A DNA stretch of 64,000 bases from Phoronis australis. Its lineage: Eukaryota > Animalia > Phoronida. Below are positions 15,524 through 64,000 of this stretch, piece by piece. The notes under the pieces are model-generated. The model saw nothing but the letters and a program-made list of their open reading frames with translations, made no database searches and was not told where the DNA came from. Position 1 is the stretch's first letter, and each line of letters starts with the position of its first letter. Made by a program: the position numbers and the translations under genes. Where the stretch lies: the NCBI GenBank assembly GCA_002633005.1, contig NMRA01000366.1:198319-262318 (forward strand). The letters are read 5' to 3'.

Positions 15524-15551
15524 TTGCTGATCCACGACACTCTACACCACC

Positions 15552-16526
15552 ATGATCGTGGACCCGACTGCCAGGCTCATCGATCACCACGGAAACGAGA
15601 TGACCGACCATTCCTCGTGCATGATGGCCGGCCAACATCAGCATGATCTGGGCCCGTCTCCCCCGCTACACAGTCCGCATCCCGACCACAAGGACTGGCC
15701 TAACAAGAACCAACTGGACGCCAAGTTAGACTCACTACAGCCTCAGCTAGCTCGACACACAACAGCTCTGTCCCAAGAGAAAAGAAGGTTTGCCGACGTG
15801 AAGCCGCCTTATTCGTACATCGCGCTCATAACAATGGCCCTGGAGAGTTCAGCACACGGTATGATGACTTTGAATGAGATCTATGCCTTTATTATGGACA
15901 AATTTCCGTACTTCAGAGAGAACCAGCAACGCTGGCAGAACTCAATACGACACAATCTCTCGCTAAACGACTGTTTCATAAAAGTGCCGCGCGCCCCAGG
16001 CCGCCCTGGTAAAGGTAACTACTGGGGTCTTCACCCGGCCTGCGGGGACATGTTTGCCAACGGTAGCTTCTTACGAAGAGCCAAGCGCTTCAAGCTGCAA
16101 AAAATGAAACGCGATGAACATCACGCGCACATTCAGCACGTAAATTCCTATGGACATTTCACCCTTTTCGGACCTCCACCGGGTGTTCCGTCTGGTTACA
16201 AAACGTCGCCTTACCCGTCGTTTAACCCACTGGCATTGTCGTCATTTTCATCCCAATCGCAGCAATACTCTAGTCTCGGGTCGCAAGTCAAGTCGGAAGC
16301 ATGGAATCAGTCGGTTGCCCCGTCTGCCTACCCTTCACCGTATTACCCCACCGCGAGTGCCATGGCCAATCCTTCCTTGGGATCCTCAGCGCCATATCTC
16401 GCCGGACAAATGCACAGTAATGCGACCCTACCCAGCTACAGTCAACTACCGCAGGCTCACTACGCGAACCAGTATTCGGCACACTCACAGTTAAGGCTTC
16501 CTACGGGCATGTCACAAACTGTATAG
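15552..16526 (+). CDS. FoxAB: Forkhead-box transcription factor, FoxAB class (324 aa, single coding exon)
   Basis: Complete forkhead domain [95 protein letters not shown]. It mixes FoxA-type ([11 protein letters not shown]) and FoxB-type (LHPxCGDMFxNGSFLRR) signatures, as FoxAB does. Strong start context ACCACCATG with an in-frame TGA upstream at 15528. Fox identity is certain; the subclass comes from motif recall. Confidence 0.9.
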
Positions 16527-23620: not shown

Positions 23621-26600
23621 TCGATCCTCCCACACACCTAACCGTTTAGTAGAAATCCTTGAACAGCTATCTTATTTTAGATTATCTAGGACAGTATTGA
23701 CAAGTATGTGTATTCAGCAAAATGTCTACACAACTGTAGAATTTGTCTCGACAAAAGAATATAATTTCTGAAAGTAGACATTCCGTAGAATTTGACTGTT
23801 GACCTTATACCACTCTGCCATTAATAAGATCACGTGATCGTGCTTTTTAAAAAAAAATTAGCAATAAAAGAAAGGTATATTCATGGCCAAAGAACAGGAG
23901 CCCCCAACACCCAGTACACTACGTATATAGGAGTATCCTCCGAGGGTTAACGCCATAGGCTGAAGTGATGAATAATTGTCAAACATTGGTCTCCGCTAAT
24001 CTTGACAAAAAGGCGAAAAGTACCAGATTGCTGTTAAACAATTTATTCCCTGGACATATCAAAAGTAAGACTCCAAGCAAACGTCACAGCAAGTACATTA
24101 TTATATGAAAATAATTCAACTGCACAATCAGTGATTAGAAAGCCGGATATTCTTCAATGAACATAAAATAAATATAACGAAAAACAAAAGCAGCAGCTCA
24201 TGGATTGTACAGACAAAAACTAAATTCATTTTAAACTTGCTCAGTGATGACAGACAGGTGTCAATTAATTTGCAAACTACATCTAGAACATTCCCCAGGA
24301 AAAATAGTACAAAAATGTAGTCAAATCCTACAACCAATGGAGTAGCATGCCAATGCATGCATTTAGAACACGTTTAGTATGAGTGTGTTGTACCTAGGTA
24401 GACAGTGTACAGTGAAGCATGGTTCTTTTAATATTCCATCTTCAGTAGCTAACATCTTCCTCAGTCAGTGATATTGAATTTTACCACCAGGTGACGTGCA
24501 AAGCAATGAGTTGTTTCCTAGACTGAGACAGACACCAGGCATTCACACCGTTAGACAACTGTTTGACTCACGAAGACTTCCTAATATTTCTCTTATAATG
24601 CACTGTTTTGCTGTCAAGGAGCACTACATTTGTGGAATACTAACAAGAACTAAGCCTAACTAAGACTGTGTCTTCACATAAAATTACAGTCGTTGTGCAG
24701 TTACACCACTTATGAAAAGTCACCGTTTGGCATATTTAAACTGAAACGTTTTTCTTTAGAAAATGCATTTCTATCATGTGAGTATAACTGTGTTCGCTTA
24801 AGCGGATTCACTTGCTCTTTCGGACACGAAACGACTTAAGGTTATTTCATAGTGTGGATTATGATGACAATTGCACGACTACATGTACACCAAACAAGAA
24901 CTGGCATAAAAACAATCCAGATATTTGGTAGGTATCAGACATAGAACCATGCAGAGATACAAAAGAAGGCAGTGCATAATAATTTGTCTAGCAGAGCATC
25001 TCCATTTGAACGTCAGAGCAAGCTAAATCATTCAACTTAGATAATTCCTATCTTCCTATTAAGTTTAAATAATGTGCTCCCATTACCATGGCATTTTGCC
25101 TTTTATTTCTAAGCAAAGTCAGCATAGGCACTGGCAAAGCAACCATGCTTTAGTTAAAAGAAAATTTGATTTATCACGATGAACTTAAAACAAAAGTTTC
25201 AGCAGAGAGCGTATTTCAAACAACACCTGTCTGCAAAATCTAACTTTCACTAGTTGCGTTTGGAAAACTGAATATACTAAACTACACAGCAACTGTTGTA
25301 CAGTGTACTTTTAAAAATTGCATTGATGGTTGTTCGAAGCTGTTCAAGACACCGTTCTCACTTACACAATGTCTATGTTTCCCACGAGTTTCCAGAATAA
25401 AATGCCTATTTTTCAAGAATTATTTTTCTCACAAAAATAAATAAACAGTATGTTACCCAGAACTTACAGATGCATAAGGCAAGGATGGGTAGTATAGGCT
25501 ACCCCTGCCATTATCAAAAAATACCAAAATAACTAAAAAACTGTAGATTTTAAGACTCAGTAAAAGTGCATATTTTCTGAAAGTGGAAAGCCTGTTGGTT
25601 TTTTAACTTTTTACTAATCTGTTAATAAATATTTTTTGTAAACTTTAGGAAATAAGAAAGGTATATCCAAAACAACCTATCAACAACGTCTTGACCAAAT
25701 TTCAGTTGTTCAAAGAGGAAATCTCAAAAATGCTTTCTAAACATCATTTCGTTTCCTTTTTATGATGGGTAAAAACCATCGACTTCTATTTTTTGAAAGC
25801 CCCTCCTGAAAACAGTTCCTAACAGCGTTTTGACGACCAGGGTACAAAGTGTAGCATTACTGAGACATGACTTCAGAAGTCTAAATTGAAGATTGAACTA
25901 AAAATGAGGACTTACACAGAACTATATGTAACAATGGATGTATGTTAATGAGTATTGCCAAGGATAGTGCGGGAATGTGAGAACTCACAATATGACTTGG
26001 AAATGAGGGGCTTACCTTTCTTATGAATTTTTTGCACGAGTGTTTATACATTTTGTCCTTTCTCATGTTTCCCATGAAGACCCGGAACATGAATAATGAT
26101 ATAGAGACAGCACACGAGATCAATAAGATGCAGCCAATCAGCATGCCCGTCGCTGAAAGTAAAGCTCCTAATAACTTTAACACGCATTACGAGCACCACC
26201 AATCACAACAGGTCTTCACGAACTATTACAGCTTCCATTTTCCCCTCTGACCAGCCACCAGCCGAAGATTCTGCCCACCCTGCCTGCCCCATTGTTGCCT
26301 GTGGCTCGATGGTTGCCATTTTAGTTTTCTGTCGCCCGATGTCACCTTGGGCCCAATGTGAAAACAACCAATCTTGAGTTCTTCTGTCACAACCAAGAAG
26401 GCCTTAAACATGCATTGGATAAAAACGTAAGAAACCAAAACATCCTGCTATTGAATTTCTATAGTTATCTACAGTACAGGTAAAAAATAACTGGATAATT
26501 TTATCTTCAAATAATTACGAGTCATTCCAGAAACTCAAACAGTGATGCCAACTCTGGGTCAATGGTCTCCACTGAAGTAATTGACCTATCGCCAGGATTT

Positions 26601-28084
26601 TGAGGGATGGCTTAACTAGCTAATCAGAACGCAACATTCTAGGCACACCTTCGTTTCCAAGCCGCCATTTTACCCAACAAACAACACGTTGCTGGGTAAA
26701 ACTTATTGTTTGCTTGGCGACATTTCGCAAGGGGTGGAGCTTACAATAGGTCGATTGAATGGCTAGGCTGTTACGTTGATTTATGGATGAAAACCCGTAA
26801 TATTCATTATTCAAGAAAATAATTCTTACCACTACTTACAGAGCCTCGCTGCCTCGATTTTGGGGATGAATATTTAAAAATCACACAAAATTCCCATCAC
26901 CAGGCTCAAAAATTCCACACAAATGATAAAAAATAAAGGTTATTCACTTCTGCAAAACATTAGTTATGGCATCTTGAGCTACTGCTGATGAGGGGTGGCA
27001 GCTGGGGAGTGGATTTGGTCATGACGGAAATTTTCCCCTCAACCAAAAAGTTGCCCTCTCAAAAAGCACAGGCACCTTTCTCCTTAGGTAAGCAAGGGCG
27101 TTGACTCAGCTATAAAAACATGTTCAAGATATTAATAAAAAGCATGGCATTAAGAAGTTTTTCACATATGAAGGGTATGAATTATTTTTTCACAAGCAAT
27201 AAATACGGAATGAGTTCTATAATTAGGCTACTGCACTTTAATGTATAAACACTTACTCTGAGCTGAACTTTGACACAGCCAGCCAAGGATGTACTTGTGA
27301 AGTTTATGTTGTAAAAGTCAATGCAAAGACTCAAGAAGGGCTTCAAATACGGAACGTTAAAGCATATAGGTGGAGGATTGCGAACTGAAACATAGAAAAC
27401 GGCGCAAATTTACACGCTAGGCAGATTGGCAATATCTGTTGCTATCAAATTGAAACATTTACCATTCGCAGGTGTGTTACAGTACCTCAAAATTTAGAGA
27501 AACTAAAATGACATTTGGGTAAGGTCACGCTAAGGGGTACAATCACAGTGATGTCAAAAACATGATAATTTATGCCCGTTTCTGTGGTTATTAAGCGGTG
27601 AACACAGTTTTATTATAAAGTTAATATGTTGAAGAGATAACAGAGATAATTTCATGTGGTAATCTTTTAGACTTTTTACAGAATTCACAGTTTGATCTCA
27701 AAAACGAGCAAATTTTCGCACTTGAAAGTGTGACATTCGTAACCGGCCATTTTCGAACGAAGTTAAAATCCTTAAATAAGGCTGAAATTCTTGTCTGTTT
27801 ATTTTAAATCTTTAAAGCAGTGAATAAAATAGCTAATATTTATTTCAGATCTTTCCATTACACAGTATAATTAGCCAAATTAATTACTTACAAATGCGAT
27901 AACGGGCGTGACGCATTCCGTCAAACCCAAGGACGAACTTCAGACGGATGTTTTCCCATATTGCAGACGACCTGTGATTTCAAACTGGTTCTCAAAAGCA
28001 AATTTAAGCAAAACCTGAAATGCCAGGACCAGTTTGTTCGAAGCGCGCAATGATTTTGTTTAACAAATGCTTCGTTTAAAAGCA

Positions 28085-28765
28085 CCTCTGTGAATTCCGT
28101 CAAGCAATCACGACCGTTATCGCCTTCTAAAATTGAACATCTTTCGAAGTATACAACTTCACTAAGCCAGACAACAGATACATTTTGTCTGTCAGCACGT
28201 GCGATCTATTTTGAGCTGTCAATTTTTAGTGCTGGATGTAAACAAAAGCCCTGAACCACGAGGTTAGTGAATTCCGTCAAACAATTTGGCACGTCACGAC
28301 CGTTATCGAAAGCCAGGCCCCAACATTTGATCGGCAAATTATGTAGATATAATTGATTGTTTATATCGTCAAATTCAAGACACATGAATCACGGTAAAAC
28401 ACGTGTAAGTAGGCAAGTGTTATTTTCGTTTTCAAGCGTGCGCGACTACAAAACGAGGACGAACTGATAACGGCCGTGACGTTGGACAACATTGCCGCGT
28501 AAAATCGTGCGTCAAAAGTCACGACCGTTATTGAGTATAATGGCAATCGTCACGACCTCAATATCTGTAAAAATGCTGTTGAAAATCGTCACGTGTGTGT
28601 TATAACTTGTATTTTTGACGGAGTCATTTCGTAAATCCGCAATGCCGTGATTTTGCGTTAAAAATAGTTCCGATATATGTGCCATGGTTTTCGTTATAAC
28701 GGTCGTGATTTGGACGTAATACCCACGAAGCACGAAAACTTCGGTCGCTAATAGTCACCCTCAAC
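28085..28765. repeat. Cluster of subterminal-type motifs (CACGACCGTTAT, GTGAATTCCGTCAA), probable DNA-transposon end
   Basis: CACGACCGTTAT at ~28109, 28296 and 28520, and inverted at ~28695; related CACAGCCGTTATC at 30390-30610. Confidence 0.4.
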
Positions 28766-31700
28766 TCCTGCTGACTACTTACAGTTGACGAATTGAAAGA
28801 AAAACCGCAGATCTAGCAATGGGTGGTCCACTGCTAATCAGCACTATGTCTATACCACAAAGTGAGGCTTCCAGACCTTTGTGAAATCGGTACTTTTGGC
28901 CAATATAAGGGGGTGTGTGACCAGGGGGTAGCCCAGTGGGTGGTGTCGACTGTTGGAATTAAAAACACCCGGGGGGTGGGGTGACGGGGGTAGACATACT
29001 GTGAGCCATCTAGACCAGGGATCAGTGGCGATGGGGGGGGGGGGCTGGACATTCCCATCCAGGGATCAGCGGCGAGGGGGGATGTGGGGAAGGGAAAGTT
29101 GGTTGAACTTGGTGACAAAACAATGAACTAATTTATGCTCAATCACCCTTCTTCAAACAGGCAGACACGGACACCTTTCTCAGACAAGTGAGAGCCTTTG
29201 ATACCTGATTTTTTCAAAATTTCCATCCCGCTCAGGTGTTACTGAGTCGTTATCCATTACTTACGCAGTGGTGATGCCAACACTTCAAAATAACACAATT
29301 TTTAATTTGTTTCTCTGAGTTTTTATTTAACTCACTTTGATGTTGGTTTTTATATTGTAAATGCCTCTTGAAGACCTGATTCGTGAAAAGTAACTAGTGT
29401 TCAGTACACAAACAGAGAAGTTGAAATTTTTTCTTAAAAGTAGCAATAGTTCCCCCATCCCCTTAATATGGTATTGAACAACAGTTAAAACTCGTCAGTG
29501 GGCTTTTTGCTCTGTCAGCAATGAATCGTGACACTACAATGTTGTGTCAGTATAATTCTCCTCTACTTTTTTATAAAATGAAACTTAAAGCATGCAGTGG
29601 GGCAAATACCAATGAAGGCGGACATTTAAGAGTTGCCTTAAACATGAGAAAGTACCTGAACTTTTGAAGGTGGATAAAGAAAGACATGAAAAAAGGATGC
29701 ATTTTAAAAGCAATTTTGTATTACAAAATATAAAATTTAATCAGTGAGATATGGACAGTGATCTTCATATAATCACTTTTTGTTTCCCCATGGATACTTG
29801 ATGGAAGAACGGATTTGTTCCTCCGAGTGACATTAGTCTGAAAAAAGAAAAGGACAGTTACAAAGAGCACAGCAGTTAATAAGAATCAGGATAGTTTATA
29901 CTCTTCAATCCAGTTCCATTCAAAAGATGCACCACTGAAGAATTTTGCTTCGATGCATCATATTATTCATCATTGCCGAAAAAAGACCGAGAAAAAGGAT
30001 GACATTGAGGAAAGCGATTTTGCTGCAGTTAAACTTCAAGCAAGGAAGATTAGACTACTATATACATTGTCATTGCTGTGGCAATCAACATTACCATAAA
30101 ATTAGTATAATTTTTGTAACCATTAATGATGAAAGCTAGTGCCTGTTTACTTGGAGTTGATGATGAGATTCTCCTTATGATCATGATTAAATGTGGTGAA
30201 AATGAGCTACAGACCAACAGCAAGAATACCTGAGCTACTGAATGGAAGACAACAAATAAACTTCAAGGACCTCTCCCAAGGTGCCAGGAAACTGAAATCA
30301 CCAATTTATTTTAAATGAAAATGTTGGACAATATAACATTCTACTCATACTATTGTGTAACTGACATGGTTAACTGGCTTTGTCAACCATCACAGCCGTT
30401 ATCACAGATATGTCAAAATGTCCAGTCACAACCGTTATCATTTTGTCTTTTATTTCCCCACACCAGGTGATGTTTTGTGTTGTACTTAGTGTTTTTAGAA
30501 AGTTAAAGGTGTTATTATTGTGCATTGCACATGGCTTACGAGACAGAACAGTTTCGATGACAATTAAATAAACTTAAAATGTCCACTTTGGGCATCACAG
30601 CCGTTATCATACTCTGCATTGATATTTTTTAATTTTTGTAGTATATATTGATATATTCATTGATAAAATCCAGAACTACTGTATGTGAACTATCTTAATT
30701 CTGTATAATTTNCATTTGGAGAGCTGCAGGTCATCCATGGTATCTTAGATTGGGTTTGGTGACCACTGTGAGTATCAAAAGTCAGACAATAATTCCCTCT
30801 AAATTCGTTGCATTAGGTTTGTGTTGATTTCCAAACTTTAAATTACTAATAGTTTTAATAGATTTATCACCTTTGATTACAATTATTCCATTTATTTCGC
30901 GAATTCGGAGCATTTCCCACCATGTTAAAATTAATACAGGAAGAAAAGACAAAAGCCGGAATTATTCGGCAAAAATGTGGCAATATTCGCACTACCATGC
31001 GGTCATCTGTGTTCCATGCCTCATTCGTCAGTCGTCGATCAGAGGACTAATAACGGAGATAGTGGATTAAGAAATGAATGTACGTAGATTTATCGGCAAA
31101 AGTTGGAAGGGAATGGGTCGTCCGACGTTTTTTTTTTTGGTCGACGAACGTTTATGTCAAGTAGGGATTTCAGAATTTAGCGCGGGAAATTTTCTTTAGT
31201 TTTGGCGACCTCAGACTTCGTTTGGCGACTTCAGATTTTGTTCAGGTCGCCAAATTCTAAGCGTCGAGCGCTGATAAACATTAAGAAATAAAAGCTTCAT
31301 TTCAACCTTCAGAGGTTACCAACACAGGAGGTTTCCAAGAGGTATGAGTAAGGCAAGGCTGGATTTGTCATGTCAACATTTCCCAAACAGAACTTGCCAT
31401 TTACGGGTTGAATTCCCCATAAAAGATTCATTCCAATTCTACAGATGACATGACATGTTCTACATAACATACCACAGACTGATAGTGAGCCCCATGGTGT
31501 ATGTCCACGAAATGACATAATTTAACCTTTCAACTAGCCCACATACATAAACCGCAGTGTAACTTTGGAAACAGAGGGCATACAAATGAAACTTGATGTA
31601 GAATAATAATTATGTGCAGTTACGGGAGGTTATGGAACAAATGGTGGCGCTAGTTTATGGTATCAATGGCATCGCTGGATTTATCTTTAGACAAGCTAAA

Positions 31701-31896
31701 ACACGCAGAAAAAAGATACTGTTCCAAAAATTGTTTATTCGTTGAACCTCATTCACATCATTCGTTTTGGGAAAAAGGAAAAATTGCAGATTTTTAATAA
31801 AAACGCTGGAAGTAGGCCTATGGAACCTTTGGCTTGGGTAGCAAAATTATAGAATTTTCAGCTGACCATTTGAATGTCTTTTATCAACTTCAACTN

Positions 31897-32145: not shown

Positions 32146-32483
32146 CAGGCACTGCCACAGCTGACTAGTCAGGAGACGGTGACGGTGTTGCTCGTATAGG
32201 AACTTCATACGCCAGAACCATTTCTGCAAATTATGCCTCACACTGACTAAAACATCATAGTCACATTGTTCTAGATACCTTTTGCGCATAGAGAGACTCT
32301 TAGGCTTAGCCCAGGGCTAGGATGGCGTCGGGATGTATTTAATTCCTTCCTTCCAGAAATACACCCGTTATCAAGCTTTCTTCGAGCAGTCCCTCGCTCA
32401 GTTCCCAAAATCGGTAACTTGCGATTTTTACACTGCACACACCAGGGGATATGGCGTCATACAACCTACTGCATGCAGCGTTA
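32146..32483 (-). mobile_element. Repeat family B, copy 1
   Basis: Its reverse complement shares GATTTTGGGAACTGA, GACTGCTCGAAG, TATGCGCAAAAGG and GTCAGTGTGAGGCATAATT with 36100-36368, 36476-36858 and 63787-64000. Confidence 0.75.
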
Positions 32484-33286
32484 AAAATAGGGAGAACAGC
32501 ATTTTTTAAAGGTTTTAGAAAATGTGCAAATACATCACGAGAAAGCTCTCCATGAGACTAAGAGTAGAGAATGGTGCAAAAAAGTTTTAAATTGGACATG
32601 CGGTTCTGGTGACTGTCNTTTATGATAAATAATTTGCAAAAAATTATTTCGATTGGAAATTCCTAGGCGAAGATATTGACCTTAAAGTCCCCAAAACGAA
32701 CAACGAAAAGTCAATTCATACAATTTTGCCATTTCAAATTGGCATAAAATAGCAACAACTCAAGAGGAAAAACAAATAAGTTATCATTTTAAAAAAATTT
32801 CATTGGGAAAGTTGAAATCTGATAATTGCTTGGAAAAATTATTGAGTATTATTTTGTGATTTTTTGTTATCATGCTGTTTTTGCGGCTGACGTAACTGAG
32901 ACAAAATCTATTACATTAAATAAAAGTTAAAACAGTCATAATTTCAAAAATGTATTGATGACAAGTATGATGAATAGAACATTTTAACAGAAGCTACTGG
33001 TAATTCTGATGGCATAATACATCGAATTTAAACATAAACTTTCCACAACAATGCACTATAAAAACGAAGACCTCGTCTTGAGCCATCCAGGAAAGTTCAT
33101 GCTATGCAAATGACAACTGCAGTATTTATTTCCTGAAGTTGTCTTTAGTGACATGAAGAGAAAAAGGAATGTATGGAATGTATGATGGACAGATAAATAA
33201 AGCTCTAAAGGCATCCTGACGGAATGACGGCCAAACCCTTTCACTGACTATCGTAAGTCAGTGGAGTACATGTACACAAGATGGAG

Positions 33287-33774
33287 TTACTCCAGCACTT
33301 TGAGGTCCCCTTGACCAAAGTCGTCCTTCAGCCGAAAGGTGTAGACGGTCTCATCTTTGACGTAGTGGTTATCGAACCAAGATGGATATCCAGGGACCTG
33401 AAAGAATACTATGATTTATAATTGATTTGTTGTTACGATGTATAGGCATTATTTAAAGTATTATGTGAAAATGTTACCACTACTTGGAAATTATGTAAAA
33501 CATTTCAACAAACAAAGCTGACATAATGCTATTAAACGTAAAGGCCGTGAAACAAAAAAAGAAATAGCTAGGTGTTTTTTGTCAGTATACGAAAATCAAG
33601 AGCATGTTGCTCTTTAGATGCTGCAATTTTATAAATAATCACTACCACAGCTTGTTACTTACTAACCTGAGAAATTATAAAGCCACAATTCCCAACCTGA
33701 TCATCACATTCAGCAAACTTGTGATGAACATTCTTGCCAACTAGGAAGTTCGATATTGTTGGCTGGACTGCTGA
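33287..33774 (-). CDS. Two-exon Spindlin-like (Spin/Ssty, Tudor-fold) module; C-terminal fragment of an unknown gene or transposon relic
   Basis: Exons 33774-33667 and 33397-33287 (intron GTTAGT...TTTCAG, phase 0) read SAVQPTISNFLVGKNVHHKFAECDDQVGNCGFIISQ|VPGYPSWFDNHYVKDETVYTFRLKDDFGQGDLKVLE*. This resembles the Spindlin repeat 2 pattern IGKxVEHxF...G.VL..P....WF.I.YEKD..LY.Y.LLDDYKEGDLRI. Confidence 0.6.
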
Positions 33775-34174
33775 CTGCAAGTAGAATCAGTAGAAGCAGG
33801 AAAGAAGAGCCATCTGGACCAAGAGCTACAAGCAGTGTCTGATGAGACAGAAATGTTAGACACGATGTTGATAGTAAACTGATAAATAAGAGTGAAATTA
33901 TCAGAACAGCAATAAAGAAGAAAATAACAATTGGTTTGGTCCACAACCGCTTTCAACAAAGGTTACCTGGAAGATATAGGCCTGGGTGAGATGTATGAAC
34001 AAGCTAGACAAACCTCAATTGTTTTGTTAACTACTTCGTCAAAAATAAGTTTATCAAAAGCATATAGCCATAAGTTTTCATGGACGTGGAACACATGTTT
34101 TGATTCATAACACAGGACTGGAATAGAACTGTACAGTTGTTATATTTGTTTACTCTAAATTTAAAATGTTTTCA

Positions 34175-35265
34175 TTTTTATGCGCCCACATATTTATATG
34201 TGGACGCATTATGCCGTCATCTCTGTCCGTCCGTCCGGGCGGCGTCCGTCCGGCGTCCGCTGCTCTATCTCCAAAACCCTTTGACATACGTTCATGAAAT
34301 TTGGCACAAATGTTCCATTCATGAATGGGACGGCATGTGCGAACTTTCAGACGTACCCGACTACCGGTGTGCCCCCTAGTGGCAATTTTAGTTTTTTACG
34401 CTTACCTTTGTATCTTCAAAAGTCCTGAACGGATTTTCATGAAATTTGGTATGTAGGCATCTATTAGTGAGATGACGCTATCCTGCCGTTTTCAGATGGA
34501 TTCGACATAGTTTGCGCCACCTAGTGGCCATTTTTACTGTTTTCGAGTCTGTATTTTTGCGTCCACCCCTCTATCAACCAAACCGCTCAAAGGATGATTG
34601 TGAAAATTGGCGTGTATGTGCTTAGTATAAGGAAGACAGCTGACAATGATTTTTAGACGATTTGGACTACTGTGGCGCCTCCTAGTGGCAGTTTTGTTTT
34701 TTTTTTCGCCGATGGCTGTATCTCCCAAACCGTTTGCAGGATCTTAATTACTAAATTGAGCAAGTGTATTTATGTGATGTTGGCAATGGACGATGACGAC
34801 TTTAGGATTATTCTGACTACCGGTATGCCTCTAGTGGCAATTTTAGTATTTGCCTCTAGTGGCAATTTTAGTATTTTACATTGACCTCTGTATTTTCATA
34901 GGTCTTCAGGTGTATACTTTGTGTTACTTTGTGACTATGAAGGAAAAGTTCCAAGTGGAAATTTGTTTCAGGCATTCTAATGCTGTGCTAATCTCGTATG
35001 TTTGTTGGTAAATTTGTTTTTAATTCAATGTTTCTGTGGTGCTTTAAGCAACTGGTGTATTGGATGTGCTTGTATTATGAAGATTACTCACATTTTGCCC
35101 CTAGCCTATTGAGGAGACAATGACCATGCCTTTCCATTTTGTTAAGTACAACATACTACATATATGCCCTCTACTGGCCACTTTATGGTACCAAAAAACA
35201 ACCCTAGAAGGATACCGTATGCGGTGCAATTGTGGGCGCATTTCAACGCTGTGCGTTGCTCTTGT
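34175..35265 (+). mobile_element. Helentron-type non-autonomous element (HINE/DINE-1-like), copy 1
   Basis: TTTT, 5' hairpin ATGCGCCCACATAT..ATATGTGGACGCAT, (GTCC)n microsatellite, ~150-bp tandem monomers, 3' subTIR TGTGGGCGCAT and terminal hairpin CAACGC-TGT-GCGTTG followed by CTCTTGT. Confidence 0.85.
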
Positions 35266-36099: not shown

Positions 36100-36368
36100 T
36101 CGTTGTATTAAAAAAGGCGAGTTTCCGATTTTGGGAACTGAACAATGGACTGCTCGAAGGAAAAAGTTTGATAATGGGAGTATTTCGTAGAGTCGGAAGG
36201 CATTGGATATATCGACGGCCTCCTAAGGTGTCCCCTTATGCGCAAAAGGTTTTCTAACAATGTGACTGATGTTTTAGTCAGTGTGAGGCATAATTCGCCA
36301 AAAAGCTTCCGTTGTTACTATAGGATCCACACCAGCTAGACAGTCTAGAGACGGTGGTCACAGTGTAA
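36100..36368 (+). mobile_element. Repeat family B, copy 2 (right end)
   Basis: Same conserved blocks; ends in AGAGACGGTGGTCACAGTGTA. Confidence 0.7.
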
Positions 36369-36475
36369 CAGCTAGACAGACTAACCGCTAGACAGTGACC
36401 ACCGTCTCTAGTCAGCTAGAGACGGTGGTCACAGTGTAACAGCTAGACAGACTAACAGCTAGACAGACTAACAGC

Positions 36476-36858
36476 TAGACAGTGACCATCGTCTCTACCT
36501 GGCCATTAGAGATGGTATAGGAGCCAAATAACACTGCGCACCGCAGGTAGTATGATGGCATATTCTCTGGCGAGCGCTGTGTAAAAATGGCAAGTTACCA
36601 ATTTTGGGAACTGAACGAGGGACTGCTCGAAGAAAAAGTTTGATAACAGGAGTATTTTTTCGAGTTAGAATCAATTAAAGATATCAACAGCCTCCTAGGG
36701 TGTCTATCTATGCAGAAAAGGTATTTATATTTATAACAACGTGACTTTAATGTTTTAATCAGTGTGAGGCATAATTCAGTGAAAAGATTTTGGCATATGA
36801 AGTTCCTATTGGAGCTCCACTGTCTACTGAACCAGTTAGAGATGGCGGTCACTGTGTA
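36476..36858 (+). mobile_element. Repeat family B, complete MITE with 21-bp imperfect TIRs
   Basis: TAGACAGTGACCATCGTCTCT ... AGAGATGGCGGTCACTGTGTA. The TA(G/C) termini are Academ-like, but the superfamily is uncertain. Confidence 0.65.
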
Positions 36859-37335
36859 GCATGCAGCTGGTGCCAGTACTGCCTATATAGACAGATTCCA
36901 TTACGGAAATTGCCGAATGCCTGGGGAGCGCCATATTGAGGTCACGCCATTAATGCCATGTCAGATAAACACTGGAGTGAGTAGTCTGTCTGTAAAGCAA
37001 ACCATCCCAGCTGCTGTGTCTGCTTGTGTTGTTTATTTGGAAGCAGATCAGCAGATTTGAAATCATTGATATTCCTGGTAAATGTTGATTTTTTTCATGC
37101 AATACATTTGACAGAAGAAATATTTGTAAATTACTAGATGTATACAATTACATAAATGTCAATAATAAAGTTAAAATTGTTGGACTGATATATAGAAAAA
37201 TAAAACATTACCGTCTAACTGATAATATACCATATTTCAAGGAGGTTTGAAATTTTTGTTTGAATCTTTTCAGAAGTGTTTACAAGTATACAAATAGAGC
37301 TGTTCAACTTTCACCTCCACTAAAAATTGTTTAAA

Positions 37336-37809
37336 ATGCCCAGTGGTAGTAACTGTGCTGTAACAGGCTGTCACAACAACTGGGTGAAATTGAAACGTTG
37401 GGAGACAGAAATTTGTGATGAACACCATGGTCAAATGCACAAAGACTGTCCATGTTTAAAACCTTACAAGTTACACAGAATGCCATCAGGTAAACACAAC
37501 AGTGAATTGAGACTACTGTGGCAAAAGTCCATTAACAGAGACAGATTACCAAAAAATGTCTTTGTTTGTTCCATTCATTTTGTGGATGGTGAGCCAACAG
37601 AAAGAAATCCAGTGCCTCAGCTAAACATGGGATATGCCAGAAAGGTAAAACCTGGTCGCAGGAAAGTTTTGAAGCTCACAAAATCAGCTACTACTGGTGA
37701 AGATGATGATGCACACGTATCTAAAAACACCCACATGGTCGAACATGTTGCATCTGAGACCAGTGAGACACTGCCTGATACTGCGGACAATTCGGAAACC
37801 CCATTCTAA
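37336..37809 (+). CDS. THAP-domain protein (truncated transposase N-terminus, 157 aa, ORF intact)
   Basis: CAVTGCHN ... LHRMP ... LWQKSINR ... VCSIHFVDG..NPVPQL is a C2CH THAP with an AVPT-like box. Possible 5'UTR intron at ~37078-37273. Confidence 0.8.
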   Translation: MPSGSNCAVTGCHNNWVKLKRWETEICDEHHGQMHKDCPCLKPYKLHRMPSGKHNSELRLLWQKSINRDRLPKNVFVCSIHFVDGEPTERNPVPQLNMGYARKVKPGRRKVLKLTKSATTGEDDDAHVSKNTHMVEHVASETSETLPDTADNSETPF

Positions 37810-38203
37810 CAGAGTGTTCAATTTTCCACAAGTCAGCACCAATGTGACTGCATGTCTTTCCTAATCCGGCCATACATTTGCAAGTGCCAGACAATATTTC
37901 ACCACTATTCAATGCTTTTATGCAGACTGAGTTCCACTCATTATTGATGTTCTGAGATGGTCTGACATTTCACTTGATAACCACGGTGTCCTTGTCCAAA
38001 TTACGGTGTAAAATCTTATCAGCGCATCCACTCTGGGAGTAATTGAATGATTCTAGGCTTTTAAAGTTTTTCATCGACTGTCCATCAACTGCTTTTGATT
38101 CTACCAAATAATTGTAAATGTCACCATACATAACATTTGGCCACTCAGGAATATAGTCTTTCCATGATGAAATGCCCTTAAATTCCAATGTTGTAGATGC
38201 CAT
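37798..38203 (-). pseudogene. ISL2EU accessory ORF N-terminus with SWIM zinc finger, one in-frame stop
   Basis: WPNVMYGDIYNYLV...FKSLESFNY...VVIK*NVRPSQ...GTCKCMAGLGKTCSHIGADLWKIE (CxCx7CxH). ORF-track entries 37970-38203 and 37721-37912 are one frame split by TGA at 37970-72. Confidence 0.8.
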
Positions 38204-39619
38204 TTTTTCAATGGACTGCTTGATGTAGGTATCACCAGGATGTCAGAAATTATGTTGTTGTGCAACTGAACGAAGTGACTCACGAAAGCAATGTTAAGAA
38301 CTGAGGGAAATCATAAGAAATTCCTCACAGTGTTGCCATATTAAGGAATGGTTATTTGGCTCTGGGATGTTTATGTGAACACTGTAGCATCCTGTTTATA
38401 ACATGTGTAGATAGATTCCAGGGGACACAGTTATTAGTCATTGTGCTCTAATAGGGCTAAGCCTCTACAGAAAGTAAACAAATCAGTACAACTACATGCA
38501 ACACTGGCAAAGACCCATTTGAAATAATTAAAACCTCAATTAGAATAATAACAAACAACAAATTCATGTCACATCACATTTTTAATAAAACACAGACCTT
38601 ATATAATCCAGGAATACGAGTTTGAATAGCTCACTAACATGGTGAACAGCTGTTCTGTTTTCGTTTCTGACATTATAGTAATGGCTGACTACCGTTATGC
38701 GAAGCCTGTGGCTGTTTTGTAAACTAAATTCCGGAGTTACACGACCTCTGTCTATAGCCAGCTTGCTAGCTGTATGAAGACTATCCTAAAAATACAGATA
38801 GGTACCACTGTTTGTTGAGCTCTGACAGACTTCAAAATTGCACACAACGAGGGTATTTCTGTTTGTCACCTCGTAGTGAAAAGTTAAAACATGTAGAACT
38901 AATGATCGGTGGGAATGCATGCAAAGTCTGGGAGCCAACTGACACCTTGCCCATTGCAGTCATTTTTTGTGAAAAACATCTAAATTAAATATACATAGTC
39001 ATATTTTGCATAATTCTCCACCTGTTGTAAAGGAAAGCCTGTGGTTGTTTTGAAAACAGTGCATCATTTCCTATTTTTGTGACGTCACTCATTTGGAAGA
39101 TGATGACAGCTTTGCAACAAGGTTTTATATTCTGAAATTCCGTATTGTTGGTATCATAATTATGGTAAAAGCTTTAAATAACAAAATGAAATCAGTTCTG
39201 ATAATTTGTGGTCACATGTACGCAACCTCGTTGTAGTAGGACAGTTGATTTAAGAATCGTCAAAAAAGAAACCGACCAGTACGTAATGCTTAATATCAGT
39301 AAATAATTTAGTTTTCTAAAGGTGAAGTGTTGATTTTAATCACAGTAATTTTGTGTCACATTTTATTTGTCCAGTTTTTACCCACATTGGTGAAAGTCGG
39401 ACTGTATAGTATACAGCTTTGTACCAAGGCTACATACTCGTCATAGCCAACCCGTAACCTTCTAGCTTTGATTTGCTACATGTTGGCAACTGTTAGTGGA
39501 CCAAAGTTGCACATTTAGACTAGTGAATGCAAGTTTATTTCATAGTTATGTTTGAAATGCAGTGCTCTAGTACTCGGCGTCTTTATTCATTTGATTTTTC
39601 ACAGTGTGTGATATCAAAA

Positions 39620-39848: not shown

Positions 39849-39887
39849 ATCTAAAGACTCATAGATTGTAGTAATTACTGAATCACC

Positions 39888-40225
39888 ATGGCAGCAGTTT
39901 GTTTGCATAACTCTTTCACCAAAAAAATGTTTCGGTTTTTATTTTTGAAGTTGAAACGACAACCAGGCCTGCTCTCCACATTTTGCTCAGCAAGTCTTCA
40001 GCCAAGGCAATGGAGTCAAAGAGTGCATAATAAGCTAACAATGAAACGTAGCTTGCAGAGAAACTGGTCGACTCCACAAAAGTTCAGCTCTGTTACTGCA
40101 AGTAGTCCGCCTATAACAGTGCTGGGGATAGAGACTAGCTGTGACGACACAGGTGTGGCTGTTGTTAACGATAGTGGTCACATTCTGGGTGAGGCACTGG
40201 TAAACCAAACGACAACACATCTACA
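39888..40225 (+). CDS. OSGEPL1: OSGEPL1 coding exon 1
   Basis: MAAV...VLGIETSCDDTGVAVVNDSGHILGEALVNQTTTHL; donor CA|GTTAAG, phase 2. Confidence 0.88.
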
Positions 40226-43200
40226 GTTAAGTTTTCCCTTTTAGAGTGAAGTTTAAACAGGTCACATTTCTTTATTGGAATTGTTTTGTGATGTACTTTT
40301 TGGAAATGGCTTGAATTCTACTGATGAGTTTTATGGTTTTTTGGTAACCTCAACACTTGAGAGGAGAGGGTTTAGGAGAAATGACAAGTGGTGGGTGTTC
40401 ACTTGTTATAAATACAGGAGAAGTTGACACAAAACGTATGAAATGACAAGTGGTGGGGGTTCACTTGTTATAAATACAGGAGAAGTTGACACAAAACGTA
40501 TGAAATGACAAGTGGTGGGTATTCACTTGTTATAAATACAGGAGAAGTTGACACAAAACGTATGAAACAAGTAGGAAAACAAATATGACTCCTGATTAAG
40601 CAACTGCTTGACCATTCTAGAACTATTCTCACTGGCTTTGTGACTTGGCCATTCTAGAACTATTCTCACTGGCTTTGTGACTTGGTCATTCTAGAACTAT
40701 TCTCACTGGCTTTGTGACTTGGCCATTCTAGAACTATTCTCACTGGCTTTGCGACTTGGCCATTCTAGAACTATTCTCACTGGCTTTGCGACAAACTTGG
40801 TGCTATATTCCATTACATAAGATTATGTCTTCATAACTGTTTCAGAGAAGTAAGCAGTGAACACGTTGGTATAATGGAGAGATAGCCAGATTTGAAGATT
40901 TAATTGGGCATTTCAGTGAAAAGGTCAACCTAAAGACAAAAAAAAATTAAATTTCTGATCTCATCTAAAAGCTTAGTTTCTAGTTTCAGGACCCATATTT
41001 AAATTTTCTATGATTTTGAATTTTTTTTAAAAAAAACCATTTTTGGAGGTCACATGTCCCTAAAAATTACCCCGATTTTTATGTGTGTTGCTAATTATTA
41101 TCATAAGTAGGCTAATTACGGGTACACTACTTTATTAAATTTGCGCAATCACATGAAGCCTAAAATTTCTAAACATGTCATTTGAACCGTAGAACACCGT
41201 CGACCTCTTTGGGTCAAAGTCCAACTGTTGGATATCATTGTGCCATACATCCATCACAAAGATGCTAAAAGGCTTATAGCTACATCAAAAGTTTTCAATC
41301 AAAATTAAAATAATTTCATATTCTCTTTTAACTTGCTAGTCAATACGATTGACCAATTTGAAACCAGGGATTATTTGTTAAGTCAGATTTCACGTGACTG
41401 ACTGACGTACAGAAAATTTGTACGTCTGTCACGTACCTTCGTCACACCCATAAATTTACAATTTTCAGACAATGAAAGTAACCTTAGGTCTTGTTTTCAC
41501 TTTCCAAACGTGCAGAAGACAAAATGTGTCTCGCACCTGAGAACCTGAAACAACTGAATATTACAAACACAACTATAAAATCATGTAAAGAAGTTGCTAC
41601 GCATTTAAACTAGATGCATTGTACTTTAAATTTCAGTTTCGAAGTATTACTGAAAAGTTGTACTTTACAGTGTAACCTAATTATTCGTAGTAGAATTCAA
41701 ATGGATAAAGTTAGACAGATGGACCACATAACAAAATGTAAATAAAAGAAAATGTTAATTTAAGTGTCCTGCATTTGTAAACTTGAGAGATCCTTAGTTT
41801 TTGGAAAATTGCAGAAGCAAAAAGTCACAAAAAATTTCATAAGGTACAAATTGATAGATTCTTATTTTTACAACCAGGAAAGCATAATACCTGACAGTTT
41901 CGGCTCCTGTCAGCAGCCATCTTTCGAAGTTTTCCGTCGGACTAAGCGAACACAGAAAGGAGCAGTCTCAGCGTAGGGTGACATGTTCAGAGAGGAGATG
42001 GTCTCAAGAGTTCTATTAACATATCTGCAGTCACTGATCATGTTCTTTGTTTTAATCAAAAGATATTTAACTAACTGGGATGATGGTTGTCCTGTTGAGT
42101 CGGAAAATAATTGAAGATCTAGACGAATAAGAGAGGCTATCTAGTGGGTCAGAAAAAAGTGACTCAGGAACAGGGACAATGGAGGGCATAAGTTGTCTAA
42201 GATTTGGAACAGCCTCATCACCACGCCACCTAGTGTTAAATAACTATGGAAGATGGCTGCTGAAATGAAGGTATGATGCTTTCGTGCTTGTGAAAATACG
42301 AAATTATCAATTTAGAAGCAAAAAGACATATAAAAGAATTTTTAAAGTGCTGTAGGAGGACTACATGTAAAGTTGCAGTTCTGCTGAAATCAACGAGTTA
42401 TTTCCACTCTAAACCGCTATATTTTGTATTGAAAAAGCCGATGCTGGACTTTTTTAAATGGTAGCAACCTGTGACCTACTTTATTAAACATTTTTGTCAC
42501 ACGTTCACTGACTAGTCACTCGGCTTGTGTTTTTCGGTGTCTTGGGTGGCTTGTATGAAGTGATTTCACAGCAAATGATTGAATCGTCTCATTTTACATG
42601 TTTTTGGCAAAACGAAAATCTTGATCTTACAATCTTTTTGAGAAAGATTATTTGTTTTCTAAGCCTCTGGAAGATTGAAATGAAAGAGGAAATTGCTGGA
42701 GACCATAGGAAGAACAAATGCGACTGAGAGAGGAACAAATATCTGCTGGAATGTTCTCTGAAACTCGGAAAAAATGCCATGATCGTGAATCAAAAAATTC
42801 ATAATTCTCTCTGCACGAACCATGATACAACTTTATTTTGCGCCTCTCTTTGAAATTGAAAAGAAGATATGTCACGAATTAAAAAACTAAATGAAAAAGA
42901 CAGCTAATCACTTGTAAGGACCAGCATCTCGTAATTTTTATCACTTTGACATATTCCTAAAAGGTAATCCTTAATTTAATGTAATTTGTCTGCAAGACCG
43001 TATCGGTGTAATATGAATGTTATAAGTCGATGCTGTCAACTGGACCATGCTGAACCAATTGTCTTCTTAACACGTTATAAGAAGATACTGAAGTCCTGTT
43101 ACAATACTTTTAAAACATCAAGTTGAATTTCTGGTTTGAGACCATGGCACAGGTTAATCACTATTGGCGCAAGGTTATCAAATGTGCACCAGATAAAATT

Positions 43201-63786: not shown

Positions 63787-64000
63787 TAGGCAATGACCAT
63801 CGCCTCTGTTGGCCCGAACCAGAGGCGATGTAGAGGCTATAGGCGCTCTGTACGCCGGAAGTTTTTCGGCGAATTATGCCTCGCACCGACTAAACCATCA
63901 AAGTCACGTTGTTATAAATACCCTTTGCGCATAGAGGAACACCTTAGGAGGTTGTCGATGTGATTAATTCCTTCCAACTCGAACAAATACTCCCGTTATG
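63787..64000 (-). mobile_element. Repeat family B, copy 4 (runs off window)
   Basis: Terminus TAGGCAATGACCATCGCCTCT, then AATTATGCCTC, TTTGCGCATAG and CTTAGGAGG blocks. Confidence 0.7.

What the first reader, a model, noticed from the sequence alone, without database searches (positions are those of the whole stretch)
33287..33774. Hidden spliced Spindlin-like (Tudor) histone-reader module on the minus strand
Seen: two stop-free exons with canonical splice signals (polypyrimidine-CAG ending at 33775, CAG|GTTAGT at 33667, TTTCAG ending at 33398) join in phase 0. The product is FLVGKNVHHKF...GFIISQ|VPGYPSWFDNHYVKDETVYTFRLKDDFGQGDLKVLE*, which the ORF track misses. Established: Spindlin1 repeat 2 has this pattern and reads H3K4me3 through an aromatic cage; equivalent aromatic residues (HKF, WF, Y, VY) are largely present here. 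Inference: a single C-terminal Spin/Ssty domain, not a three-repeat Spindlin. It may be the tail of a transposon protein that uses a methyl-histone reader for target choice, or an orphan gene. I could not find its upstream exons.
Basis: partly seen in the sequence, partly recalled or inferred. Interest (0 to 1): 0.72.

Follow-up and report, generated by a model that had tools for sequence, protein, structure and literature searches.

The report
Transposase tail with Spindlin-like reader
This is a likely dead two-exon scrap of a cut-and-paste jumping gene whose intact relatives in many animals end in a small domain predicted to fold like the histone-mark reader Spindlin, so those enzymes likely grip marked chromatin, while this copy has no enzyme part nearby and lacks one of the four pocket residues.

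Summary
The two exons and the phase-0 intron between them are real. Exon 2 alone finds Spindlins in the PDB (E 1.8e-5). Its closest relatives, however, are the C-terminal ends of 950-1050 aa proteins from molluscs, echinoderms, an annelid and a catfish. These have a conserved D-D-E triad and CxxH motif, are predicted to fold like the hAT transposase Hermes, and end in one Spin/Ssty domain. Six related loci have a GT-AG intron at the same codon. Two complete elements have TAGC(A/G)A ends and 7-bp target duplications. The window holds only the last ~62 codons: no transposase body, no ends with a target duplication, the W151-equivalent cage residue is Asn, two other conserved residues differ from sister copies, and no junction reads were seen. 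The proposed acceptor at 33775 is probably the border with another repeat. Verdict: a decayed remnant of a hAT-like transposase lineage with a Spindlin-type reader; histone binding and targeting are untested. I found no paper on it. This scan noted the same design earlier in other genomes.

The parts
33667..33756 (-). First half of the Spin/Ssty-like domain (LVGK..H.F motif to the SQ donor); in relatives this is the end of the long transposase exon
   Evidence: family alignment
33398..33666 (-). 269-nt phase-0 GT-AG intron at the SQ|VP junction, a position shared with 6 related loci
33287..33397 (-). Last exon: second half of the Spin/Ssty-like domain and stop codon
33125..33130 (-). AATAAA, candidate polyadenylation signal about 160 nt after the stop
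   Evidence: function not tested
32638..33286 (-). 3' non-coding part shared with at least one diverged sister copy (one contig piece spans 32638-33427 with 94 other letters)
   Evidence: table 8
33764..34030 (.). High-copy repeat abutting the remnant; its border lies at the proposed 33775 acceptor; no similarity to the transposase profile
   Evidence: summed DNA depth 450-1250 against 6-10 for exact contigs; loose ends at 33769 and 33776
32147..32483 (+). Left copy of an inverted pair of a very high-copy repeat that brackets the remnant; not shown to be this element's end
36529..36888 (-). Right copy of that inverted pair (a further partial copy at 36109-36309); no target duplication found

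Best explanation
The locus is a likely non-functional 3' remnant (the last intron and about 62 codons) of a DNA transposon whose intact relatives encode one 950-1050 aa transposase, predicted to have a Hermes/hAT-like cutting core and ending in a single Spindlin-repeat-2-like domain that likely binds methylated histone tails and would hold the enzyme on marked chromatin. Shown: the homology, the conserved D-D-E and CxxH residues, the shared intron position, TAGC(A/G)A ends with 7-bp target duplications in two relatives, diverged sister copies in this genome, and loss of the enzyme part and of one cage residue in this copy. Predicted: the folds. Inferred: cut-and-paste mobility through the DDE core; methyl-lysine binding by the F/Y-W/Y/Y cage with the D184- and D189-equivalent acids (about 0.65); use of that binding to bias insertion towards, or to work within, H3K4-methylated chromatin (about 0.4). 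The confidence given is for the remnant identity.
For: Exon 2 finds 21 representatives, 19 with a Pfam Spin-Ssty match at E below 0.1. The long ones carry the domain at the C-terminus behind transposase motifs. One of them finds 141 relatives. In 82 aligned members D377, C423, H426, R513 and E691 are invariant and D304 is present in 75, with 7 gaps. AlphaFold model of P0034: pLDDT 89.0; best Foldseek match Hermes, E 3.7e-7; VIA Z 16.4, rmsd 4.4 over 346 residues, and residues 875-946 match Spindlin-4 at Z 10.5, rmsd 2.0 over 68. 104 of 115 longer proteins found with a domain alignment also match the transposase-body profile. The joined product is 45-51% identical to transposase tails and 37% to fish Spindlin repeat 2. 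GT-AG intron at the same codon in L001, L007, L026, L044, L064, L076; 39 of 120 listed proteins lose similarity right at that junction. Ends and 7-bp duplications in L010 and L083. Decay: Asn at the W151 column, aromatic in 39 of 43; Asp and Asn where the family has Asn (40 of 43) and a hydrophobic residue; sister-copy reads and contigs carry the family residues at those two codons; terminal branch 1.06 against a median of 0.26.
Against: No transposase body, and no TAGC(A/G)A ends with a target duplication, around this copy, so the assignment rests on the domain and the intron. No whole genome is held, so a full-length parent in this species was not seen. Both exons are still stop-free with canonical splice sites, and most conserved residues remain. 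The domain alignment used was built mostly from this family, which inflates the 104 of 115. The tree gives the window row no well-supported group. Twelve related loci lack the intron. L010 also has a rival 8-bp pair. No binding or insertion-site data.
Confidence: 0.84

Rival explanations
1. A living orphan or domesticated gene encoding one stand-alone Spin/Ssty reader, spliced from unseen upstream exons through the acceptor at 33775.
For: Open frames, canonical splice sites and AATAAA; three of four cage residues and both acidic anchors kept.
Against: No junction listed at 33397/33667 or at 33775 in about 5,090 million letters from three RNA runs, whereas a neighbouring intron gave 10, 19 and 47 reads. 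RNA depth over 33660-33711 is 0-0.6. Reads on exon 2 lie on both strands and nearly all carry sister-copy letters; 6 of 728 laid RNA reads are 99% or more alike. Non-conservative changes at conserved columns. 33775 borders a high-copy repeat. Caveat: the RNA runs are other samples, only 18-19% of each was read, and tissues are unknown.
Confidence: 0.07
2. The module is the tail of a different mobile element, for example a Kolobok/ISL2EU-type element with a spliced-on Spin exon, perhaps linked to the THAP and SWIM-like remnant at 37.3-38.2 kb.
For: A THAP ORF (Pfam E 8.4e-6) lies 3.6 kb away, with a convergent minus-strand ORF remnant. The DNA upstream of exon 1 shows no similarity to the hAT-like body.
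Against: The THAP ORF is on the opposite strand and points away. The minus-strand remnant converges on THAP and is separated from the exons by it and by other repeats. Among 115 proteins with the domain, the 11 without a body match are 2 fish Spindlins and 9 fragments of 115-147 aa, none with another transposase type.
Confidence: 0.08
3. Same origin, different job: in intact elements the domain is a protein-contact or anti-silencing module (binding a partner, or occupying marks that host silencers read) and does not steer insertion.
For: Single-domain context lacks the repeat-1 pocket that adds affinity in Spindlin1 (PMC3967050, passages). The F141 column is Gln or Leu in 6 of 43 and the Y177 column is non-aromatic in 9 of 43. 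Some family members appear to end without the domain (for example P0061).
Against: All four cage columns are mostly aromatic (37, 39, 43 and 34 of 43) and the D184 column is Asp in 39 of 43, the pattern of the K4me3 pocket, which repeat 2 forms alone.
Confidence: 0.35
4. Chance resemblance of two short frames.
For: Pfam finds nothing on either exon alone; exon 1 alone finds nothing in the PDB.
Against: shared intron position.
Confidence: 0.01

Closest known systems
Spindlin1-4, Spin/Ssty repeat 2 (Pfam PF02513; PDB 4uy4, 4mzg, 7e9m, 5lug)
   Same: Sequence and predicted fold; best match is repeat 2; cage columns F141, W151, Y170, Y177 and acids D184, D189 are mostly kept in the family (cage residues from PMC3967050, passages).
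   Different: One domain, not three; fused to a transposase; the window copy has Asn at the W151 column; binding untested.
hAT superfamily, Hermes transposase (PDB 6dwz, 4d1q, 8edg, 2bw3)
   Same: Best structural match of the family's core; D-D-E with CxxH and a helical insertion; short imperfect TIRs starting TAG.
   Different: 12-14% identity; no sequence-profile match to Hermes in the listed PDB hits; no PF05699 or BED match in 10 of 10 scanned; 7-bp rather than 8-bp duplications in the two complete elements; long N-terminal helical region and C-terminal Spin domain.
P element / Galileo, MuDR (ISCth4), Kolobok, Dada: the C/DxxH group
   Same: Share the C/DxxH motif with hAT (PMC9587614, passages); P and ISCth4 are the next transposase matches (Z 9.4 and 10.5); Galileo and 1360 make 7-bp duplications (PMC3698922, passages).
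   Different: Weaker structural match than Hermes; no THAP domain in the 10 proteins scanned; no TTAA target as in Kolobok.
Reader-bearing mobile elements: chromodomain Gypsy integrases, Tudor-bearing Gypsy-10_Ec32 of Ectocarpus, PHD and Chromo fusions
   Same: C-terminal chromatin-reader domain on the inserting enzyme (PMC12477816 and bioRxiv 10.1101/2021.11.30.470311, passages).
   Different: Those are retrotransposons or Chromo/PHD fusions. PMC12477816 calls its Gypsy the first reported TE with a Tudor domain. 'spin' occurs 0 times in the main text of the fusion survey.

Membership tests
Spin/Ssty domain (PF02513) | Sequence similarity to Spin/Ssty repeats | tested here: met
   Exon 2 against PDB E 1.8e-5; joined product against fish Spindlin repeat 2 E 2.6e-11 pairwise; 19 of 21 nearest relatives match PF02513. 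Single exons give no Pfam match.
Spin/Ssty domain (PF02513) | Tudor-like beta-barrel fold | tested here: met
   On the relative P0034: Spindlin-4 Z 10.5, rmsd 2.0, 68 aligned. The window peptide itself was not folded.
Spindlin repeat-2 type methyl-lysine reader | Four-residue aromatic cage F141/W151/Y170/Y177 in the window copy | tested here: not met
   F, N, Y, Y.
Spindlin repeat-2 type methyl-lysine reader | Four-residue aromatic cage in intact family members | tested here: met
   Aromatic in 37, 39, 43 and 34 of 43 domains.
Spindlin repeat-2 type methyl-lysine reader | Methyl-dependent binding of H3 tail peptides | not testable with these tools
   Needs peptide binding assays.
Spindlin (three-repeat host gene) | Three tandem Spin/Ssty repeats | tested here: not met
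   Only one domain in the six-frame window.
DDE transposase, C/DxxH group (relatives) | D-D-E triad and CxxH motif | tested here: met
   D304 75 of 82 (7 gaps); D377, C423, H426, E691 82 of 82.
DNA transposon (relatives) | Terminal inverted repeats with target-site duplication | tested here: met
   L010 211-7617 and L083 7134-13059; 2 of 38 TAGC(A/G)A pairs in 6 loci carry a perfect 7-bp duplication; motif found after the fact.
hAT superfamily (relatives) | Hermes-like catalytic fold with helical insertion domain | tested here: met
   Foldseek E 3.7e-7; Z 16.4, rmsd 4.4, 346 aligned.
hAT superfamily (relatives) | 8-bp target-site duplication | tested here: inconclusive
   7 bp in two elements; a rival 8-bp pair exists in L010.
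hAT superfamily (relatives) | C-terminal dimerisation domain PF05699 or BED finger by profile | tested here: not met
   0 of 10 full-length proteins at E 0.05. Filed as hAT-like, not as hAT.
Autonomous or intact element (window copy) | Transposase body upstream of the domain | tested here: not met
   Best core-profile hit in the window E 0.16 at 43.2 kb on the other strand.
Autonomous or intact element (window copy) | Family-type ends with target duplication around the copy | tested here: not met
   single-N assembly breaks at 31896 and 32618 limit the test.
Expressed spliced gene (window copy) | Junction reads 33667 to 33397 | tested here: inconclusive
   None listed in three RNA runs, 18-19% of each read, other samples; control intron detected.

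The most novel reading that the evidence does not exclude
A widespread, apparently undescribed lineage of animal DNA transposons (TAGC(A/G)A ends, 7-bp duplications, Hermes-like core) uses a Spindlin-type cage to read H3K4 methylation when it inserts, and vertebrate Spindlin arose by capture and triplication of this transposase tail. In my searches the domain occurred on transposases across several phyla and on three-repeat Spindlins only in two fish. That search was biased towards the transposon family, and the 63-column tree cannot be rooted, so the direction is open.
Probability: 0.2. Interest if true: 0.88.

Novelty: new variant of a known kind. Interest (0 to 1): 0.56.

Why it matters
Reader-guided insertion is established for chromodomain retrotransposons, but a Tudor-type reader on a cut-and-paste transposase was not found in the papers searched, and a 2025 paper describes a Gypsy element as the first TE with a Tudor domain. 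If the intact domain reads H3K4 methylation, it gives a natural chromatin-tethered transposase whose targeting can be tested directly, and a candidate source for the Spindlin family. The copy in this window is only a decayed marker of that lineage.

Tried and rejected
No whole genome is held, so copy number and a full-length parent could not be searched. Pfam on single exons: nothing. Exon 1 against the PDB: nothing. Word-index search with exon 2: nothing. Sequencing runs: no RNA holder listed. Viral contigs: 90 pattern matches, none confirmed. Acceptor 33775 as a true exon start: rejected as unsupported. The inverted ~300-340 nt arms at 32.1-32.5 kb and 36.5-36.9 kb as this element's TIRs: not shown; they belong to a very high-copy repeat with further copies at 36.1 and 63.8 kb, end in YAGGCA, show no target duplication, and do not match flanks of 83 related loci. 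Link to the THAP remnant: rejected on orientation. Tree of 90 domains: too few columns, 19 of 80 inner branches well supported, bootstrap not settled; it cannot place the root or the window row. hATx and hATm as the family: the papers describe BED plus PF05699 with 8-bp duplications, and TAGGGTG ends with 8-9 bp duplications, which do not match. Paper searches without a description of this fusion. Repbase and Dfam could not be searched and may hold these elements; the supplements of the bioRxiv fusion survey could not be seen and may bear on novelty.

Full report
Setting. The window is animal DNA at about 39% G+C, with a forkhead gene at 15.5-16.5 kb, a THAP ORF at 37.3 kb and many repeats. 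No whole genome is held.

Observation. On the minus strand 33774-33667 and 33397-33287 are stop-free and join in phase 0 across a 269-nt GT-AG intron; AATAAA lies at 33130. Pfam finds nothing on either exon alone and exon 1 finds nothing in the PDB. Exon 2 finds 17 Spindlin chains among 18 matches, best E 1.8e-5, with repeat 2 as the best stretch. On the full family profile the joined product scores 40.6 bits against 11.0 and 10.4 for the single exons. On a profile of 43 related domains it scores 74.1 bits against at most 10.7 for shuffles, and exon 1 hits that profile independently. The module is real.

What it belongs to. Exon 2 searched against 1.84 billion representatives gave 21 hits; 19 match Spin-Ssty, one is a short fragment without a Pfam match and one is an unrelated repeat protein. 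The long hits, from Diadema and Mya, carry the domain at the C-terminus. P0018 finds 141 relatives; named ones come from bivalves, gastropods, sea urchins, Capitella and the catfish Neoarius, and most are labelled uncharacterized, some 'SPIN3-like'. In 82 aligned members D304, D377, C423-x-x-H426, R513 and E691 are conserved. The AlphaFold model of P0034 (pLDDT 89.0, pTM 0.70) matches Hermes best (Foldseek E 3.7e-7; VIA Z 16.4, rmsd 4.4, 346 aligned), then ISCth4 (Z 10.5) and the P transposase (Z 9.4). Its last 70 residues match Spindlin-4 (Z 10.5, rmsd 2.0). Of 115 longer proteins found with a domain alignment, 104 also match the transposase-body profile, 2 are fish Spindlins and 9 are short fragments; the query was built mostly from this family, so this count is biased. 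The window product is 45-51% identical to three transposase tails and 37% to repeat 2 of two fish Spindlins.

Intron. Six of the 83 fetched loci have a GT donor at the same SQ|V codon boundary and a downstream AG|VP exon, with introns of about 100-530 nt; L026 has the same GTTAGT donor. Three more break at CAG|GT with no exon found in the DNA left, and twelve are uninterrupted. Thirty-nine of the 120 proteins listed lose similarity exactly there, as expected when a gene caller reads into the intron, and six short hits begin with acceptor-like text before VPG. The window's intron is therefore a family trait. The upstream acceptor is not: 25 of 28 loci that reach the domain run into it in one frame, and the AGs at 33814 and 33826 score the same as 33775.

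Mobility of the relatives. Many fetched loci are frameshifted copies. Two have both ends: L010 (211-7617) and L083 (7134-13059) begin and end with TAGC(A/G)A, have 14-nt ends with 3 mismatches and a perfect 7-bp duplication. Two of 38 such pairs in six loci carry one. The motif was found after the fact and L010 has a rival 8-bp pair, so 7 bp is probable, not settled. L083 is filed under a bacterial bin but is likely misbinned animal DNA (inference from its microsatellites and tree position). With no PF05699 or BED match in 10 of 10 proteins, I call the family hAT-like within the C/DxxH group and do not file it as hAT.

State of this copy. Only profile positions 908-969 of 970 are found in the window; the body profile's best hit is E 0.16 elsewhere. 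No family-type ends with a duplication surround it. DNA contigs show the exact copy at depth 6-9.5 and summed depth 37-72 over the exons at 80% likeness, roughly a handful of diverged sisters (depth is only a rough guide). The stretch 33764-34030 is a far more abundant repeat whose reads leave the window sequence at 33769 and 33776. Spindlin1's K4me3 pocket is F141, W151, Y170, Y177, with D184 and D189 anchoring the H3 N-terminus (PMC3967050, passages; numbering from the alignment). In 43 family domains those columns are aromatic in 37, 39, 43 and 34, and Asp in 39 and 31. The window has F, N, Y, Y, D, D. It also has Asp-Asn where the family has Asn plus a hydrophobic residue, and sister-copy reads and contigs carry the family residues at these codons. 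Its leave-one-out score is sixth lowest of 44 and its tree branch is four times the median. In three RNA runs (about 5,090 million letters read) no junction was listed for this intron, the core of exon 1 was nearly uncovered, exon 2 reads were on both strands, and 6 of 728 laid reads were 99% or more alike, while a neighbouring intron was seen in 10, 19 and 47 reads. These are other samples, partly read, so silence is likely but not proven.

Mechanism. Shown: homology, catalytic residues, ends and duplications in relatives, cage conservation, decay here. Predicted: folds. Inferred: the intact enzyme excises and inserts through its DDE core, and its tail binds a methyl-lysine, most likely H3K4me3 by likeness to repeat 2, tethering it to marked nucleosomes. 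Whether this steers insertion or serves another purpose, such as a partner contact or shielding from silencing, is open.

Literature. Searches (listings and abstract starts) found no description of a transposase with a Spin/Ssty tail. PMC12477816 (passages) calls a brown-algal Gypsy the first reported TE with a Tudor domain. The chromatin-TE fusion survey 10.1101/2021.11.30.470311 (passages) has no 'spin' in its main text; its supplements could not be seen. Also read: PMC8721813 (first quarter and passages), PMC6004678, PMC9587614, PMC3698922 and 10.64898/2026.08.20.746118 (passages). Repbase and Dfam were not available. Earlier notes of this scan describe the same design in other genomes; they are unchecked leads, were seen after my reading was formed, and are not used as support.

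Verdict. Observation partly confirmed; transposon-tail reading supported; this copy is likely a dead remnant. New variant of a known kind; interest 0.56.

Noticed in passing
window 37324-38242: THAP ORF on + (Pfam E 8.4e-6) converging with a broken minus-strand ORF that has a SWIM-like CxC..CxH motif (label recalled; no Pfam match); multi-copy by DNA depth (about 70-90). Looks like an internally deleted two-gene DNA transposon.
   Followed up: partly
window 27600-30760: Multi-copy non-coding stretch (DNA depth 47-83) with a repeated GTCACGACCGTTAT-like motif in opposite orientations near its two ends; likely a non-autonomous DNA transposon; ends not found.
   Followed up: partly
window 32147-32483, 36109-36309, 36529-36888, 63838-63999: Very high-copy repeat with YAGGCA ends and hairpin-forming subterminal sequence; tandem palindromes at 36336-36510.
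   Followed up: partly
window 34158-35265: Extremely abundant repeat with many copies at 44-62 kb, heavily represented in RNA reads on one strand.
   Followed up: no
window 24500-27300: Minus-strand transcript with a GT-AG intron at 26402-27255 (10, 19 and 47 junction reads) and no long ORF in the part joined; possibly a long UTR or non-coding RNA.
   Followed up: partly
window 15531-16526 and 39882-40244: Single-exon forkhead gene (Pfam E 8e-38); and an ORF ending in a VLGIETSCDDT motif that resembles the first exon of a mitochondrial tRNA-modification (OSGEPL1/TsaD-like) gene (label recalled; no Pfam match).
   Followed up: no
L008, L013, L014, L026, L043, L044: Several related elements carry tandem arrays downstream of the transposase gene, with periods from tens to about 350 nt.
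   Followed up: no
L081, L082, L083: Three bacterial genome bins hold this transposase, likely animal DNA misbinned as bacterial.
   Followed up: partly
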